From NCBI GenBank assembly GCA_039189765.1, contig JBCCYL010000013.1, forward strand, positions 32,001 through 96,000: 64,000 nucleotides of DNA, given 5' to 3'. Under the pieces are notes generated by a model. It worked only from the letters and a program-made list of their open reading frames with translations. It was not told where the DNA came from and searched no databases. Positions within the stretch are counted from its first letter, which is position 1. Every line of letters starts with the position of its first letter. Source of the stretch: Cyanobacteria bacterium P01_F01_bin.150. GTDB taxonomy: Bacteria > Cyanobacteriota > Cyanobacteriia > CAKZMO01. The position numbers were made by a program, and so were the translations under genes. Shown here one piece after another: positions 40,601 to 44,400 of this stretch.

Positions 40601-41414
40601 TTTTTATATTAACCAGCAGCATACTGAATGGCGTCATGATGATGGGCCATTGATCGCAGCCCTCAATTCCTTTGGCCATAGCGGCACGAATGTTCATATG
40701 GTAATTCGAGACTATTCATCGGTACCCGATTTAAAAGTGGAGACTGGGCCTGTGCTTGTTCCCCTGTCAGCTAAAACCCCTGAAAGCCTGAAAGCCTATG
40801 CGGCAAAATTAGCTGTGTTTTTGGACAAGAGACAGCCGAATAATAGTCAGTCAAACCGCACAGTAGACAAAGATTTTAACCTCACGAACTTGGCCTTTAC
40901 GCTTCAGGTTGGACGCGAAGCAATGCGAGAACGGTGTATATTTTTGGTTAAAACAATTCCAGATTTAGTGACCCAATTAAAGGCGTTTGTCAATGGTAAG
41001 ACACTCAACGGCTCCAGTTGGAGCGCCCGAGTTGGCCGTAGCAATAGTCGCCCTATTTTTGATGAAGAAGAAGCTCATAGTATTGTCAGTCAATGGTTCC
41101 AACGAGGAAAGCTAGACAAAGTTGCTGCGGCATGGGTCCAGGGTACAGTAATTGACTGGTCAGTCCTTTATCGCGATCGCCCCCCAACCAAAATCCACGC
41201 CCCTACCTATCCCTTTGCCCGAGAACATTACTGGAAACCTGAGCCACAATCCATTATCGAAGAGACTGTTGATAACACTGTCCAGACAACAACGCCAAAT
41301 GACACGACTCGGGACGATATTCATACAGCAACGGCGTTAGATCCCGCCCCTGTGGAGCATGGAACCCTTTTACTTCAGCCCTGTTGGATAGAGCAAGCGA
41401 TCGAAGCGTTGTAA
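22614..41414 (+). CDS. trans-AT PKS (cMT-ACP-KS-KR-cMT-ACP-KS-KR-ACP-KS-KR-cMT-ACP-ACP-KS)
   Basis: 6266-aa ORF with AGGAG at 22600-22604. Three LE(I/V)GAGTGG cMTs; four KSs with intact C/H/H motifs (NTGCSSS, NTACSSS x2, NTGCSSS); KRs GGAGGLG, GGCGGLG, GGAGTVG; ACPs GxDSI. No AT motif seen. Confidence 0.96.
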   Translation: MFKKISPNEQLNQLIIDGVLKALEVLDILKAMADRCDINILRKQCNIPDKYSRLWDEIIRILSRAGRIEEHGLQIQLACSYDELKQQISDVNLVQQSDQLGKNYPQLQPQLGLLIPCLQHLPQILTGRKLATEVIFANSSVERVEAVYKEHPSAEYFNLRVADVVVAAVQQALPMLGIGEKIRILEIGAGTGGTSIVLFQALQPYANQLCYTYTDISKRFLIYADETYSQQYPFIETQLLDIEQAVVEQGCESASFDIVVAANVLHATRSIGNTLHNVKALLKRDGFLVLNELADVSPFLTLTFGLLDGWWLYDDEDIRLPGSPALSATNWQRMLESQRFHDVILLDEAAHTLGQQIIVAQNGDINTNPPLMSPNIASASSASSPSSTSSPDQEIETSRLIPSSTTTAASFEASIATAVEASLMEQLSLCIKIDQDRLGKHTTFSDYGVDSILMLAFVDRVNAALGIELSPSELFNYTTVDRLTQFISSRYRDQLSAIPATTRPATDIPESTGPATEPVTNDQQDVSQQLSNREAEEQPSHQLEQDHPDIAIIGMSGQFPGATDVQQFWQNLRAGTCSVEELPQSRLVRQLYSSQPEDGKCYCKWGGVLAEQACFDPLFFEISPKEAASMNPSQRIFLQEAYHALEDAGLVNASLEQLHCGIYVGCEPNGYPQQGFTGSSEAIVASRLSYFLNLQGPAIVINTGCSSSLVAIHLACESLRHGENDIALAGGLSTNLNSELLTCLSSIEMLSFSGKCHTFDAAANGTVLSEGVSVFVLKRVQDALNDGDLIYGVIKGSGINQDGRSNGITAPSGLAQENLIKRIYQNYNIDASKISYIEAHGTGTKLGDPVEANALKQVFADVSASVDFHCGVGSAKANIGHAAAAAGAIGLMKVLLSMKYRQLPGLVNFKQLNPLIDLKDSGLYIVEQLQDWTVEPGMPLMAGINSFGHSGTNAHLVVEEAPALSIANSQRPFYLICLSAKTDEALEQKIRDLSDYLVRNNAHNGSQQSVDASLNLGAISYTLNTGRAHFKKRCAFVVDSLAELQAALTESLEGVTGSAEKMSAQERSLCQKTFDLIVADISASGHLENGSKPTLYRENLMAIAALYLKGFDIDWQRVYSGQSYQRVSLPTYPFAKETYWIDQTKAANLPKPFTVQISSLDGNSHHENLHHKNPSTNSATLDGQFYMPQWTPVVKGRRQKAEGRKANSKFKIPSTETLREQNSKFPNSPTPQLPNSPTPQLPNSPNPDPIIIFYPSLLSGLKDDLQQGYEQGDQQGSVCPVFSIAIGTTPKSDLDVREANAFERLFASPDLKIDALLEQGRALTIYFLMPETDQISDVEFTLERLEVSQSLGLIALFRLIQALLTYHGYANALTLKIVTQQTQLCRASDPINPYGAEVVGFVQSLAQEYDLWQVSCVDIQPPSLWTPQQRLTFAEALIDLYPQENGRVLCWRDGQFYQNTLTPVYLPSTQGSVFKTHGVYLIIGGAGGLGLVLSRYLIDTVQAKLVWVGRRSIEALAPDASQLLASHRTDILYQQADLGDLEAMGQVVQNANATFGQINGVIHSALVLADGAIADMAESTLHHVLAPKVKGNVVLQQALADEPLDFLLFFSAGQSFMSQAGQSNYAAASTFEDAWGHYQNQRQPYPVKIINWGYWGDVGIVATVDHRQRMAQQGVLSIDLEEGMEAIERCLASYAAQVAYFKAEPDTLSLLGLDNPYVLQACSQRVSPTLVDAVIATTQTAFLSPQQVQRYQHSLEQLDRFGCHLLLHAFQSMGVFCQPGERYQQQSLASQLGISTQYAQLYPELLRLLEKAGFIGINDAQIEVNNTLPHDHGAHQHWLAPYPELTTHETLLRTCLQAYPNILRGTVAATDILFPNASMDLVAGVYKGGTVTEALNSKVREAAIAYVKARLADGQSLGTQRLEKIVFLEVGAGTGGMSHAVLDGLAPYGQHIEYYYTDISEHFVQYGRRCYGDDYPFVHFQRLDIEQEQSILSNGVPRACDVVLAANVLHATQSIRTTLQHVKALLKQNGLLILNEITALESFSTLTFGLLEGWWLYQDAEVRIPGGPVLSETMWHRVLAEEGFRTVTSLKEPGESASLGQSIIVGQSDGWSLRIDSSTDMPVDALDYAPINAPINAPINATSNQGRSATAQIELNLASPVSAVTTGDTLANGARTNGVGTPTNSPAQTIKQVESQIIQTLSDALDIATSRVELDVPFSEYGVDSILSVAIINQLNQQLGIRLQRPDLFNYTTIERMAAHIVETFGDRLQPSQTQRQKAEGRRQKAEGRSSKLQVTSNKFLTPQSSDSPTSQLQQKSVKSVKSADHSPTPPLPQKNPKSKIQNPKSTNPEPIAVIGMAACVPGADNVQTFWDNLVAGKDSVTQISPERWQREAVNEMPGSPDTSQRKAGYMENIAEFDPLFFAISPQEAEWMDPQQRLFLQQAWRAIEDAGYNPRSLKGTSCAVFMGCAPTSYGVKESERSGYGPYSMTNSGAILSARMSYFLDLKGPSIPINTACSSSLVAIHLACEQLRSGQSDLALAGGTSALIGPSLHIGLGGAGMLSPDGICKAFDQGANGFVLGEGVGVVVLKTLASALADHDPIHGVIIGSAMNQDGKTNGIMAPNGPSQTALVESVYHQFQIDPNSISYVETHGTGTQLGDPIELNALDAAYKTFTSRTQYCAIGSVKTNIGHTNTAAGVCSLIKTLLCLKHKTLVPSLHYHQPNENIQFSQTPFYVNTEVKDWPGDQSGIRRAALSSFGYSGTNAHMVVEEFVDTRSRPSLHQGPVLMILSARNKACLQEHARNLIAHLQRQDFNPDGSIALADIAYTLQIGRQGMAERLAFVADSIMAVIQQLTAFVNGNGRSPDLYRGNVKSAGSNNTLILEGEAGQAFIETLIKQGDYSKLAALWVSGTDLDWSLLYGNHLPQRISLPGYPFARDQYWVNWDSSEVGASSFGKSRPEDVIQTQQPHKPSLEPKTELMTFEEIWQEQPLRHALDAPDAPNSMRYQTLVYLLSQSNHQQDIRQTLQALDPTFKVIFIGQGETCTKQSPHVYTVNPADGQSYRDVLTRIKQDHGEIDALLYLWPLEDSRWVTDASPIVYSLQALATSGLNPSRFLLVSAFATGLERCYLESWLGFERSLKLTMPNLQVTGLYQEWPEQGEQSQPMTMTDWGETIFAELQAPKAQTVLIQQQRRYVCQIKETTLTTPNKTATPVIKPGGTYLITGGCGGLGYWVAQHLVQAATLASGPAVNLILTGRSPVDELLQAKLTTLEQLGAKVHYIQADVADAIAMETGLVQAKNRFGDIHGIFHIAGIAASTSILDKAIATFEQVLRPKIAGTMMLDELCHDQSLDFVCYFSSSAAILGDFGACDYAIGNRFQMAYASYRHQLQQQGQRRGKTLVINWPLWQDGGMGFNSDTNTAMYLRSSGQRSLETQEGLAVLDQILNQHKTQHLVLVGQPSRIYRFLGLVQEPSSVSSVPSAPVSSAPVSPVFTHAAPTHLASVTPAPLTSVSMSGNQISTRPELRGLTLEQCVLWDLRNIIAQQLKVPWEQLDRDSNFADFGYDSISLLSFATRLSQHFQLDITPALFFGHSTLEQLTQYFLGEHHGHIQSVYQESGSQKSEVGNQKAGEQKLGRQEAGGREAGGQERESNLPFLRRMGKTKCAHREGADGHVLSSFAHPTSTTTFQGLPANTPPDVQQPDVLLEEQPGQTSNVEDNPLNEPIAIIGMSGRFPNAYDIGQMWTILAEGQCAVEEIPSSYFDWHQYYGDPSQDANKTNGKWCATIPGVAEFDPLFFQISPREAPNIDPRQRHLLQESWNALENAGYGSQHISTQKIGTFVGAEEGDYSQRVTKGNITSNHSGILAARLAYFLNLKGPTMSINTACSSSLVAAHQACLSLRQGECDTAIAAGVNLMLTPYSYIGMGQAGMLSNDGHCYAFDQRANGLVPGEAVVVVVLKRLSRAVADGDPIQGVILASGVNYDGKTNGITAPNGVSQTELVQEVHQRANVTPEDIDYIVTHGTGTKLGDPVEANALKEVFKESDRPCAVTSSKTNFGHTFAASGLVSLVSLVQSLRHEAIPPSLHFSQQNSFIAWEQTPLYVNTTKQSWLEQPGKKRTGAVSSFGMSGTNAHILVQDYQSHPKTSQPQVNSPFYLLVLSAKTEEALQQKVTGMVSFLQGGLAEEITLEDISYTLCAGRHHFQYRLAIVVQDIADAIYAWTQFGQPDQKPNIFQGKVPTEFRGQTVTQKYVDELVQKRCVSPGDRHSSDDATMYQETLFGLADFYCQGYEISWDGLYGDAPPRRIALPGYPFSRQLFWLEFVPEKEGGAIATNGSAVQPQINGSPVSQPVSNGSTAQPQTTGSHRQQFTDLSYLLSWQQQAPTPTAIPANQAVLLVYFESTSKFEQTLAHFLQQRCASQVFEIQLGVETKQISERKWVCNVGSANDLQTCLQAPAQMIDSVYFLCVDRVQQGYETSEIQLLRLVKALKQQIPAHALIDFTLLTLDNYRVDHSATEPNDGGLSGLGYAVAQGDHRFRVRNIDLSREDLASTEQQRALPAFIVSEAPSNRGEITKLYAGLRYKPTFFKLDWPALQVIGERGPGLEFGGVYVLLGGAGTVGTLLSRYLIQNYQANVVWLGRRAPTSSAIQEKLSAFQAMAANTGANAPLYIQADVTDQSSMVQAVQQIKQHYPHINGAIFSALVFKFDNSIAQTSEQDFNAVFDPKQKGAPYFYQAFKDEPLDFMCYLSSVQAFPFLSARDSAGYAAGITSADTFALSMVQPTAPSITRPIDNDAAFPVGIINWGYWQASLAGTETEKRLAGHYDLITDDIGCQFFADFVPMLRAGLINQTICLGASKAVQTLMGCHATQMISLNKPHSDSLIHTLDGFNSVVGRSVPHNADVKGDLAGDASELARLLDREFRNELDHWLSRLLIAQIQTLGIFLQEGEQKESAAWQQQAGMISKYERWWHECCLGLLETYGYVRCEGDRVTVTTNTITPDETNTLWQNWATYQQSIDNPEKRTALTLLDSCLSALPQILRGQTQATDILFPKSSMEKVENMYKRNSISDYFNTFVAKGAEAYIRQRIQADPQTQIRILEIGAGTGGTTALVLPQLRQVQDAIDSYCYTDLSKAFLMHAERSYGPDYPYLDYKLLDIEQPLSPQGIDIGSYDIVIATNVLHATKDIRRTLRHVKTALKRNGLLLLNEVVAKSMVGTLTFGLLDGWWLYQDEELRIPGSPLIELDCWLQILKEEGFRSTLLPTKAALELGQQVIIAETDGLIRQDRSATSSQVKPSIQSAQSIAQNRGIVPNKPASPKPPAQTVVQTISPELLQKRVADLMINALATTLDMTPANLDPQVSFSDYGIDSILGVGFVDQLADTFGIALNTAILFDYTNVTRLSHYLAETHTATIQSKLNLNEAINGADAVEECIDGHILSSFAHPTPEDLSPENLRQEVSDRVLEFLAETLDLTPDSIDPQVSFSDYGIDSILGVGFIDQLADAFGLTLNTAILFDYTNVIRLSHYLVETYLEAIQSKLQVQLQAQPQVQPQVQPQAPLPALLPAQTMPPPKAGISMVNIGHQSNGHQSNGHQSNGHQSNGHQSNGHQSNGHQAGTHQLDNRQTDGDKMGTCREIAVIGIAGQFPGATDVDTFWQNLIQSHDGVTELPSNYLNPALFSSHKQPGTTDCKWGGILEARACFDPLFFNITPREAESMNPHQRLVLTESWKALEDAGYNPKMLENSRVSTFIGAESTNYAHESFTGSSDAIVASRLSYYLNLKGPALVVNTGCSSSGLAIHLACESLRSGESAMALAGGVFAALQESALIELAQIDMLSSTGRCRTFDQGCDGTVLSEGVGMVVLKRLDDAIKDNDPIYGVIQASGANQDGASNGITAPSGLSQEELLASVYRQYHINPETISYVEAHGTGTPLGDTVEANALKRAFKQFTNKTQFCALGSAKSHIGHTGAASGVIGLIKVLLSMRYRQLPKLLHFETLNPRIELENSAFYINQQHTEWRHDDGPLIAALNSFGHSGTNVHMVIRDYSSVPDLKVETGPVLVPLSAKTPESLKAYAAKLAVFLDKRQPNNSQSNRTVDKDFNLTNLAFTLQVGREAMRERCIFLVKTIPDLVTQLKAFVNGKTLNGSSWSARVGRSNSRPIFDEEEAHSIVSQWFQRGKLDKVAAAWVQGTVIDWSVLYRDRPPTKIHAPTYPFAREHYWKPEPQSIIEETVDNTVQTTTPNDTTRDDIHTATALDPAPVEHGTLLLQPCWIEQAIEAL
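26197..26349 (+). repeat. in-frame mosaic of STRR-type short tandem repeats
   Basis: (AAGGCAG)x4, then (AAAATTC)n interrupted by cttccacggagacgctacgcgaac, then (CCCAACTC)x~7. Confidence 0.9.
29438..29650 (+). repeat. in-frame mosaic of STRR-type short tandem repeats
   Basis: (AAGGCAG)x6, (CAAGTAA)-like x~4, (AAATCTGTG)x~3, (CCCACTCC)x~3, (AAAATCC)x~5 in an ACP-KS linker. Confidence 0.9.
33446..33549 (+). repeat. in-frame degenerate heptamer repeats (GGAGTCA/GAAGTCA/AGGCAGG)
   Basis: caggagtcaggaagtcagaagtcggaggtcggaaatcagaaggcaggag...ggaggcaggaggccaggag in an ACP-KS linker. Confidence 0.8.
33574..33649. mobile_element. GTAG-type REP doublet (REPIN-like) lying inside the PKS reading frame
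   Basis: Perfect 14-bp terminal inverted repeats GTAGGATGGGCAAA/TTTGCCCATCCTAC; each arm is itself a GATGGGCA...TGCCCATC hairpin. Confidence 0.8.
37259..37293. repeat. perfect 14-bp hairpin inside KR-cMT linker
   Basis: cagcgttgtggggc-gctccgt-gccccacaacgctg. Confidence 0.8.
38885..38920 (-). repeat. single GTAG-type REP arm between tandem ACPs
   Basis: tgatgggcacatcctttcgtcctttgcccatcctac; one mismatch to the right arm of 33574-33649 (DGHILSSFAHPT versus DGHVLSSFAHPT). Confidence 0.85.
39324..39422 (+). repeat. in-frame 15-bp tandem repeat (SNGHQ x6)
   Basis: caatc(c/t)aatgg(t/c/g)ca(c/t) units varying only at synonymous positions. Confidence 0.9.

Positions 41415-44400: not shown

What the first reader, a model, noticed from the sequence alone, without database searches (positions are those of the whole stretch)
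41355..41560. Gene fission inside a KR domain: two giant ORFs in the same frame
Seen: ORF3 ends HGTLLLQPCWIEQAIEAL*, the first strand of a KR structural subdomain (compare SAGTLICYPYWQEK...YAKHLVFLC at about 48480). ORF4 resumes in the same frame with QYSRHLVIFC after two in-frame stops (TAA 41412, TGA 41442) and a new GGAG-ATG at 41490. Inference: an ancestral protein of about 11,000 aa was cut within a domain, and the orphan beta-strand may act as a docking element by fold complementation. Alternatively the break is a recent inactivating lesion.
Basis: partly seen in the sequence, partly recalled or inferred. Interest (0 to 1): 0.7.

Follow-up and report, generated by a model that had tools for sequence, protein, structure and literature searches.

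The report
Polyketide synthase split inside ketoreductase domain
Two giant polyketide-synthase genes are cut inside a ketoreductase domain, just after its first strand; the cut is inherited and shared with the swinholide and misakinolide gene clusters, so it is a working subunit junction, and the orphan strand may be what holds the two proteins together.

Summary
ORF3 (22614-41414) ends ...GTLLLQPCWIEQAIEAL*. A 75-nt spacer follows, with a second in-frame stop. GGAG-ATG at 41490 then opens ORF4 (MIAYRQ...YSRHLVIFC), and all of this is in one frame.

The cut lies in the loop between strands b1 and b2 of the KR structural subdomain of a trans-AT PKS module (KS-flanking subdomain-b1 | KR-ACP). 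It is not an artefact: an independent contig of the likely source run matches exactly, and a relative at about 87% identity from another study bridges the spacer. It is not a recent lesion either. Orthologues in Nostoc sp. UHCC 0450 (swinholide), Ca. Entotheonella serta, a Nostoc MAG, Tolypothrix, two Planktothrix and another cyanobacterial MAG are cut in the same loop. Their spacers are 47 or 142 nt, or the two genes lie about 50 kb apart. Three scytophycin-type relatives are fused and form a nested clade, so the shared frame here is a coincidence.

Neither end carries the helical docking domains seen at other KS|KR junctions. In split tails b1 is conserved, while the sequence after it is free to vary. 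Docking by strand complementation is therefore plausible, and it resembles DHD domains at KS|DH junctions.

The parts
22614..41414 (+). ORF3, a 6266-aa trans-AT PKS subunit with domain order MT-ACP-KS-FSD-KR-MT-ACP-KS-FSD-KR-ACP-KS-FSD-KR-MT-ACP-ACP-KS-FSD-b1
   Evidence: ORF list; Pfam on sliding 500-aa windows
39480..40565 (+). Last KS domain of ORF3, the KS of the split module
   Evidence: Pfam ketoacyl-synt 8.5e-77 and Ketoacyl-synt_C 1.2e-40 (protein 39)
40572..41234 (+). KS flanking subdomain (KAsynt_C_assoc and RhiE-like linker), ending in the YPFAREHYW motif at 41208-41234
   Evidence: Pfam (protein 40); sequence
41235..41360 (+). Variable Thr/Asp/Pro-rich tether between the flanking subdomain and b1. 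It is longer here than in the orthologues.
   Evidence: Alignment A2
41361..41396 (+). b1 of the KR structural subdomain (GTLLLQPCWIEQ), carried on the upstream protein
   Evidence: Alignments A2 and A3; strand E11-22 in the AF2 model of the fused orthologue; aligned to the N-terminus of 4j1q
41397..41414 (+). Five-residue tail AIEAL and the TAA stop of ORF3
41415..41489 (+). 75-nt spacer with an in-frame TGA (41442-41444) and the Shine-Dalgarno GGAG (41478-41481). No + strand promoter-like or terminator-like site was found.
   Evidence: the SD and start region is homologous to the Planktothrix and G043 leaders
41490..55751 (+). ORF4, a 4753-aa subunit with domain order KR(without b1)-ACP-KS-FSD-OMT-ACP-KS-FSD-KR-ACP-KS-FSD-KR-ACP-KS-tail
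41490..41543 (+). 18-residue leader MIAYRQSRLTSQSSQYSR, homologous to the b1-b2 loop of the fused orthologues. It has no docking helices.
   Evidence: coil in the low-confidence model
41544..41561 (+). b2 of the KR structural subdomain (HLVIFC)
   Evidence: Alignment A3; strand E36-42 of the fused model
41535..42764 (+). KR domain body (structural and catalytic subdomains). The Pfam KR hit covers 42006-42575.
   Evidence: Pfam KR 2.6e-49 (protein 41); PksJ KR 4j1q E 3.1e-96, query 12-420
42900..43097 (+). ACP of the split module
   Evidence: Pfam PP-binding 8.4e-14 (protein 42)
48477..48569 (+). Internal uncut paralogue of the same b1-loop-b2 segment in ORF4 (GTLICYPYWQEK...HLVFLC)

Best explanation
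This is an inherited, working split-module junction of a trans-AT polyketide synthase. The synthase belongs to the swinholide / misakinolide / scytophycin / tolytoxin / luminaolide family.

One chain-extension module is divided between two polypeptides. ORF3 carries the KS, its flanking subdomain, a flexible tether and the first beta-strand (b1) of the KR structural subdomain. ORF4 starts 18 residues before b2 and carries the rest of the KR and the ACP. ORF4 is translated from its own GGAG-ATG. The two genes are probably co-transcribed.

Inferred mechanism: the b1 tail of ORF3 inserts into the incomplete structural subdomain of the ORF4 KR in trans. This completes the fold and also tethers the two subunits. 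It would take the place of the helical docking domains used at other KS|KR junctions. The logic matches DHD domains at KS|DH junctions, where a C-terminal element of the KS subunit binds the downstream domain directly.

Shown: the position of the cut within the fold, its inheritance, its conservation in producers, and the lack of docking helices.

Inferred: the physical complementation.
For: Context and position of the cut:
[quoted passage not shown] - The cut lies in the b1-b2 loop.

The same loop is cut in orthologues at 62-68% identity:
- Nostoc sp. UHCC 0450, Ca. Entotheonella serta, and P0059, P0064 and P0067.
- A Nostoc MAG with a 142-nt spacer in another frame.
- A Tolypothrix MAG with a 47-nt spacer.
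- In MAG G043 the tail gene (L052) and the KR gene (L017) lie on one contig about 50 kb apart on opposite strands.
- In two Planktothrix genomes the KR-first gene is intact (4507 aa open) and does not sit next to the upstream gene.

Selection acts on the orphan strand:
- V, G, T, L, L, P, W, E, Q and E are invariant in 5 of 5 aligned tails (A2).
- The tether before b1 and the tail after it vary. The tails end at AIEAL, TVEN, TVENSGSMTPHSIGENSR or TDEISF...ERW.

No helical docking elements:
- Most of the 28 other KS-FSD C-termini retrieved carry a ..F(Y/H)xxLLD..(I/L)S(I/V)(D/E)xA.. tail. ORF3 does not.
- Other N-terminal KR proteins keep b1, and often a helical leader as well: P0094, P0118/9, P0131, P0227, P0240, P0259, P0260 and P0352.
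- MlnE's KR begins its b1 at residue 32, after its docking domain.

Other support:
- b1 is detachable in sequence. In human FAS the equivalent strand aligns at residue ~1107, far upstream of the rest of the KR.
- Fused and split states interconvert within the family.
- A second junction of this assembly line follows the same logic. The ORF4 tail ends ...LSLNPWWG (compare SHPLLD, 32 aa before the catalytic His, in the ORF2 DH). The next subunit starts inside its DH at Pfam profile position 25.
- DHD tails are reported as essential for KS|DH docking (review PMC9113145, passages read).
Against:
- In both Planktothrix genomes a transposase-bearing insertion truncates the upstream gene inside b1 (GTLILHPC|RVGV...). 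If those pathways are active (I recall, but did not verify here, that luminaolide was isolated from PCC 9631), the full b1 motif is not strictly required.
- AF2 of the ORF4 KR alone gave a poor model (pLDDT 52). That run used a shallower alignment than the fused model, so it says nothing either way.
- The upstream partners of the Nostoc UHCC 0450 and Entotheonella proteins were not retrieved, so their tails were not seen.
- Expression is unknown.
Confidence: 0.6

Rival explanations
1. The junction works, but the b1 tail is a vestige. The KR folds without it, or with its own leader in that place. The subunits are held together by other contacts, such as KS-KR surfaces, lateral packing of the megacomplex, or the ACP.
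For: The Planktothrix upstream genes lose the W-x-E-Q half of b1 to an insertion. No co-fold or binding data exist. The sequence after b1 is clearly drifting.
Against: The b1 core is invariant in 5 of 5 aligned tails. It is also intact in the tail of MAG G043, whose partner gene lies 50 kb away. Meanwhile the flanking sequence drifts, and a vestige would drift too. The crystallised PksJ KR construct begins exactly at b1. No alternative docking element is visible at either end.
Confidence: 0.28
2. A recent inactivating lesion: a nonsense mutation or small insertion has broken one gene, and the cluster is dying.
For: There are two in-frame stops and the frame is shared. Fused orthologues exist.
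Against: At least 9 assemblies, including the swinholide producer, are cut in the same loop. The SD and start are homologous to those of distant relatives. ORF4 is open for 4753 aa and all of its domains score well. The spacer is kept in relatives at about 87-95% identity from other studies.
Confidence: 0.03
3. An assembly or sequencing artefact creates the stops.
For: The genome is a 350-contig metagenome-type assembly.
Against: Logan's separate assembly of run X1 gives the same sequence at depth 43 with 0 differences over 1201 bases. Contigs from two other studies cover the spacer. Orthologues are split at the same place.
Confidence: 0.01
4. Stop-codon read-through or recoding makes a single fused protein of about 11,000 aa from the in-frame ORFs.
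For: Both ORFs share a frame and the spacer is 75 nt, which is 25 codons. The relative in X3 adds 9 nt, which also keeps the frame.
Against: Two different stops (TAA and TGA) would both have to be read through. The orthologous spacers are 47 and 142 nt, out of frame, or the genes are unlinked. A good SD and ATG precede ORF4.
Confidence: 0.02

Closest known systems
Split modules of the swinholide (swi), misakinolide (mis), luminaolide (lum), tolytoxin (tto) and scytophycin (scp) trans-AT PKS clusters (Humisto et al. 2018, PMC5772238, sections and passages read; Ueoka et al. 2015, recalled and not read here)
   Same: The orthologous proteins are 62-68% identical over the KR, with the same domain families. 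One PKS gene lies on the reverse strand and there is a standalone AT. The same gene boundary occurs in the Nostoc UHCC 0450 and Entotheonella proteins.
   Different: This is a new, more divergent member, with a long branch of 0.42 on the KR tree. It has five PKS genes and a formyltransferase start. The paper mentions 'split modules' only in general. It says nothing about where in the KR fold the cut lies.
Four-helix-bundle docking domains at KS|KR split modules (MlnD/MlnE of macrolactin, PDB 5d2e; Zeng et al. 2016, via review PMC9113145)
   Same: The same kind of junction: a KS-bearing subunit followed by a subunit that starts with a KR.
   Different: MlnE keeps its own b1, which aligns from residue 32 after an N-terminal docking domain. 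The ORF3 tail and the ORF4 leader have no such helices, and here b1 sits on the upstream subunit.
DHD (dehydratase docking) domains at KS|DH junctions (gladiolin GbnD4/GbnD5; Jenner et al. 2018, via review PMC9113145, passages read)
   Same: A C-terminal extension of the KS subunit binds the downstream catalytic domain directly, and the downstream side has no docking domain. ORF4's own C-terminal junction looks like this type.
   Different: DHD domains are described only at KS|DH junctions. They are about 70 disordered residues on a KS that lacks the flanking subdomain. Here the partner is a KR, the KS keeps its flanking subdomain, and the element is one defined beta-strand of the partner's own fold.
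The psi-KR of animal fatty acid synthase and related PKSs, whose first strand is separated in sequence from the rest
   Same: The b1 equivalent aligns at FAS residue ~1107, while the rest of the KR lies hundreds of residues downstream. So b1 can be supplied from a distant segment.
   Different: In FAS the separation is by an inserted domain within one polypeptide, not between two proteins.

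Membership tests
trans-AT PKS split module (KS|KR type) | The modules have no integrated AT, and a free-standing AT lies in the cluster. | tested here: met
   No Acyl_transf_1 hit in 54 windows covering ORF1-4. A 308-aa AT gene lies at G000:C13:21272-22198.
trans-AT PKS split module (KS|KR type) | The KS and the KR/ACP of one module lie on two consecutive, intact polypeptides. | tested here: met
   ORF3 ends KS-FSD-b1 and ORF4 starts KR-ACP. Both are open over 6266 and 4753 aa.
PKS ketoreductase domain (two-subdomain SDR fold) | A structural subdomain beginning with b1, followed by a catalytic Rossmann subdomain with a GGxGxLG motif. 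| tested here: met
   Pfam KR 2.6e-49 and the motif at ORF4 residue 179. The fused orthologue's model matches 4j1q over 417 residues, including b1. In the window, b1 and the rest of the domain lie on different proteins.
Four-helix-bundle docking pair (MlnD/MlnE type) | A helical region of about 25 aa at the C-terminus of the KS subunit and another at the N-terminus of the KR subunit. | tested here: not met
   Only 5 residues (AIEAL) follow b1, and the leader has 18 residues homologous to the b1-b2 loop. The motif seen in most other KS-FSD tails is absent. Helix content was judged from sequence and from a low-confidence model only.
DHD docking domain | It occurs at a KS|DH junction, on a KS without a flanking subdomain. 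| tested here: not met
   The downstream domain is a KR. The KS has RhiE-like linker and KAsynt_C_assoc hits (protein 40).
DHD docking domain | The C-terminal element binds the downstream domain directly, with no N-terminal docking domain. | not testable with these tools
   The architecture fits: a tail on the KS subunit and nothing extra on the KR subunit.
Swinholide/misakinolide/scytophycin-family assembly line | Orthology and collinearity with the published clusters. | tested here: inconclusive
   The best matches of both junction halves are this family (62-68% identity), and the gene layout is similar. Full module-by-module collinearity and the product were not worked out.

The most novel reading that the evidence does not exclude
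Trans-AT PKS subunit boundaries may follow a general rule: cut just after the first beta-strand of the downstream domain. The orphan strand, left on the upstream subunit, would then be the docking element. It would be a minimal docking class based on fold complementation that needs no docking domains.

This one assembly line would show it three times:
- KR b1 at ORF3|ORF4.
- An HPLLG-like DH first motif at ORF4 | the TE-bearing subunit.
- KS | flanking subdomain at ORF1|ORF2.

DHD domains would be the one instance studied so far. Because fused and split states interconvert in this family, the b1-b2 loop of the KR would be a natural, portable split site for engineering.
Probability: 0.35. Interest if true: 0.7.

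Novelty: new variant of a known kind. Interest (0 to 1): 0.5.

Why it matters
How the giant subunits of trans-AT PKSs find each other at intramodular junctions is only partly understood. The review read here names two main docking classes for trans-AT PKSs.

A KS|KR junction held by one strand of the KR's own fold would be a third class and a very small one. It would also explain why no docking domains are seen at this boundary in the swinholide, misakinolide and luminaolide clusters.

The family contains natural fused, adjacent-split and unlinked-split versions of one junction. One of these is in a culturable producer. The idea can therefore be tested directly.

If it holds, it offers a defined loop at which PKS modules could be cut or joined.

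Tried and rejected
- Complex prediction (tail alignment A2 with KR alignment A1) was not available. No co-fold was made.
- I considered reading the two stops through to fold a naturally linked single chain. I did not do it, because a code may be named only to test how the organism reads its DNA.
- AF2 of the ORF4 KR alone gave pLDDT 52.3, against 81.8 for the fused orthologue. The alignments differed in depth (6 close sequences against 9 more varied ones), so no conclusion is drawn.
- The search for related loci with the single ORF4 KR found only two distant loci.
- 40 relatives of G000 hold no orthologue. The best match outside the window's own genome is 36% identical.
- The one metagenome scan returned a single locus, a duplicate of the Tolypothrix record.
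- The third protein search, on the tail region, added no new orthologous upstream partner. The Nostoc UHCC 0450 and Entotheonella upstream tails stay unseen.
- No RNA holder was listed for the stretch.
- There is no + strand promoter-like or terminator-like site in 41000-41900.
- Paper searches found no description of a KR cut after b1 or of strand-complementation docking in a PKS. The search terms were 'split module'/trans-AT/ketoreductase/docking, 'structural subdomain'/'split module' and 'strand complementation'/'polyketide synthase'. Subscription papers are not covered.
- The b1 DNA pattern gave 111 matches in genome contigs. A script classed 47 as PKS reading on into b2. It classed 3 as stopping soon after b1 (L052, L084, L127), all of this family. 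It classed 61 as non-PKS or unclear; by eye at least 4 of those (L048, L057, L065, L076) are uncut PKS. The pattern is tailored to this b1 subtype, so it cannot show absence elsewhere.
- There are possible recurrences outside the family. P0318 and P0358 start at b2, but both are single Logan records. P0134 of Ca. Scalindua ends with a b1-like ...TMCFEEVWQETAL... tail. These could not be checked for partners. P0332 is probably a cut start.
- An origin by insertion of a mobile element with duplication of the loop codons was considered. Tolypothrix keeps ENSGSMT on the tail, and the Planktothrix and G043 leaders keep ENxSLITQY. The similarity of the supposed duplicate copies is too weak to claim this.

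Full report
**What is there.** The window holds four co-directional giant ORFs of a trans-AT polyketide synthase. Pfam scans of 54 overlapping 500-aa windows found KS, flanking-subdomain (RhiE-like linker), KR, DH, ER, MT and ACP domains but no AT. A 308-aa standalone acyltransferase lies just upstream on the contig.

ORF3 (22614..41414, 6266 aa) ends ...YPFAREHYWKPE-(tether)-VEHGTLLLQPCWIEQAIEAL, with TAA at 41412. A 75-nt spacer follows, holding a second in-frame stop (TGA at 41442) and GGAG at 41478. ATG at 41490 then opens ORF4 (4753 aa), which begins MIAYRQSRLTSQSSQYSRHLVIFCEPDG.

**Where the cut lies in the fold.** An uncut paralogue inside ORF4 reads GTLICYPYWQEK-13 residues-HLVFLC. Uncut orthologues read GTLFLKPSWIEQSIENSGSITQYNRHLVILCEPDG.

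I made an AlphaFold2 model of one uncut orthologue (Microcoleus sp. C2D2, 458 aa, alignment A3; pLDDT 81.8, pTM 0.84). It places these residues in a 12-residue strand (E11-22, block pLDDT 89), a weaker loop (23-35) and a second strand (E36-42). The model superposes on the crystal structure of the bacillaene PksJ KR (4j1q) from model residue 10 to the chain's first residues (Z 51, rmsd 1.8 A, 417 of 417 residues).

The ORF3 tail is therefore b1 of the KR structural subdomain, ORF4 starts just before b2, and the gene boundary falls in the b1-b2 loop.

**Artefact or lesion?** Logan's independent contig of run X1 reproduces 40900-42100 without a difference at depth 43. X1 is probably the source sample, so it is not independent of the reads. 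A 1751-nt contig from another study (X3) bridges 41084-42098 with 132 differing letters and a 9-nt tandem insertion in the spacer. Pieces from a third study (X2) cover 41221-41428 and 41420-41569. The list of differences was truncated, so I could not confirm that those relatives keep both stops.

The orthologues carry more weight:
- Proteins 62-65% identical to the ORF4 KR begin a few residues before ...Y(S/G)RHLVILCEPDG. They come from Nostoc sp. UHCC 0450 (the swinholide producer of Humisto et al. 2018, PMC5772238), Ca. Entotheonella serta and several metagenomes.
- In a Nostoc MAG the upstream gene ends ...GTLMLQPCWIEQTVEN*. The next gene starts 142 nt later in another frame.
- In a Tolypothrix MAG the tail is ...WVEQTVENSGSMTPHSIGENSR* and the spacer is 47 nt.
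- In cyanobacterial MAG G043 the tail gene (L052) and the KR-first gene (L017) lie on one contig, about 50 kb apart on opposite strands.
- In Planktothrix paucivesiculata PCC 9631 and Planktothrix sp. PCC 11201 the KR-first gene is intact (4507 aa open) and is not next to the upstream gene.

The window's Shine-Dalgarno and start region is homologous, base for base, to that of the Planktothrix and G043 genes. The split here is therefore inherited, and the shared frame is a coincidence.

**Fused relatives and direction of change.** Three assemblies are uncut at this site: Anabaena sp. UHCC 0451 (scytophycin cluster), Microcoleus sp. C2D2 (P0056 is identical to it) and P0070.

I built a maximum-likelihood tree of 405 KR columns with 17 rows, three of them outgroups. 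The fused forms are one clade (100/99). That clade is nested beside the Nostoc and Tolypothrix split forms. Entotheonella and the window branch earlier, with backbone support of 81-93. An AU test rejects the tree in which all split forms are one clade (p 0.008), and one change of state suffices.

Three caveats apply. The group was defined after the tree was seen. The outgroup branches are long. Only the KR was used.

At the DNA level the break is not at exactly the same codon in all lineages. Tolypothrix keeps the loop codons ENSGSMT on the tail, whereas the Planktothrix, G043 and window leaders keep ENxSLITQY-like codons on the downstream gene. Either the fused state is a secondary re-fusion or the loop was cut more than once. 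In both cases continuity of the chain at this loop is dispensable.

**How the two proteins may dock.** Known KS|KR split modules such as MlnD/MlnE use four-helix-bundle docking domains (review PMC9113145). MlnE's KR aligns to the model only from its residue 32, so it keeps its own b1 behind the docking domain.

Among the proteins retrieved here, most of the 28 with a KS-flanking-subdomain C-terminus carry a helical ..F(Y/H)xxLLD..(I/L)S(I/V)(D/E)xA.. tail. Other N-terminal KR proteins carry b1, often after a helical leader.

ORF3 and ORF4 have neither feature. Five residues follow b1, and the 18-residue leader is the remnant of the loop.

Selection acts on the orphan strand. Ten positions of its core are invariant in 5 of 5 aligned tails, and the strand is intact even where the partner gene is 50 kb away. 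In contrast, the tether before it and the residues after it vary freely and stop at different points.

The strand can also be supplied from afar. In human fatty acid synthase its equivalent aligns near residue 1107, with the rest of the KR far downstream.

The closest studied analogue is the DHD domain. It is a C-terminal extension of a KS subunit that binds the downstream DH directly, with no partner docking domain.

The same assembly line seems to use that logic at its next junction. ORF4 ends ...ENLSLNPWWG, which resembles the SHPLLD motif that opens the ORF2 DH. The TE-bearing subunit on the opposite strand starts inside its DH, at Pfam profile position 25.

**What is not shown.**
- In both Planktothrix genomes an insertion carrying a transposase gene truncates the upstream gene inside b1 (GTLILHPC|RVGV...). 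If those pathways are active, the full motif is not essential.
- The poor model of the KR alone is confounded by alignment depth.
- Expression is unknown.

**Novelty.** The gene boundary itself sits in published clusters, whose paper mentions 'split modules' only in general terms. My three paper searches found no description of a KR cut after b1 or of strand-complementation docking in a PKS. Subscription journals are not covered, and I did not read Ueoka et al. 2015.

I therefore class this as a new variant of a known kind: a split-module junction whose docking element is probably a strand of the partner's own fold.

**Verdict.** The reading 'recent fission or lesion' is rejected. The reading 'docking by fold complementation' is kept as the best but untested mechanism.

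Noticed in passing
window 6072-6097: ORF1 and ORF2 overlap by ATGAATGA (the ATG at 6090 lies over ORF1's last codons), with GGAGGAG a few bases upstream. The cut separates a KS (ORF1 ends ...HLIVEEYDPLQINSGVEEQGHE) from its own flanking subdomain (ORF2 starts MNEELIVISARTEDRL; RhiE-like linker at residues 13-77). This is another boundary inside a folded unit.
   Followed up: partly
window 55400-55751 and G000:C13:2604-20708 (L144/L145): ORF4 ends with a KS that lacks a full flanking subdomain, plus a tail ...ENLSLNPWWG. The 6034-aa PKS on the opposite strand starts inside a DH (EKEFVIHADHPIVTNHKAYGQELLPG; Pfam PKS_DH_N from profile position 25) and ends ACP-TE. This looks like a DHD-type KS|DH junction whose first DH motif stays on the upstream subunit.
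   Followed up: partly
G000:C13:22819-24318 (L145:2819-4318): The N-terminus of ORF1 (5092 aa in full) carries Formyl_trans_N and Formyl_trans_C domains. This suggests a formylated starter, as in macrolides with N-methylformamide ends, rather than swinholide itself. The product was not worked out.
   Followed up: no
L019:1842-2864 and L022:2245-3033: In both Planktothrix genomes the orthologous upstream gene is truncated inside b1. It is followed by transposase genes (DDE_Tnp_1 5e-13 in one, DUF772 2.6e-17 in the other). The two insertions share only the first four codons (RVGV).
   Followed up: partly
window 41419: A related population (run X3, about 87% identical) has a 9-nt tandem duplication (CATTGTGGG) in the spacer. 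The spacer therefore evolves by small indels.
   Followed up: no
L016:2826-2967: The 142-nt spacer of the Nostoc MAG contains a 10-nt inverted repeat (ACTTACGCAA ... TTGCGTAAGT) around a purine-rich stretch. It may be a small inserted repeat element.
   Followed up: no
window 56320-62424, minus strand: The cluster ends after ORF4. The next genes encode a NACHT NTPase, a WD40-repeat protein and an AAA ATPase.
   Followed up: partly
P0134 (Ca. Scalindua sp., 7205 aa): An unrelated PKS seen full-length on many contigs ends, after YPFAKEHY and a linker, in ...LDTMCFEEVWQETALPEII.... This resembles a b1 tail. P0318 and P0358 start directly at b2. These may be recurrences of the same kind of cut outside this family.
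   Followed up: partly
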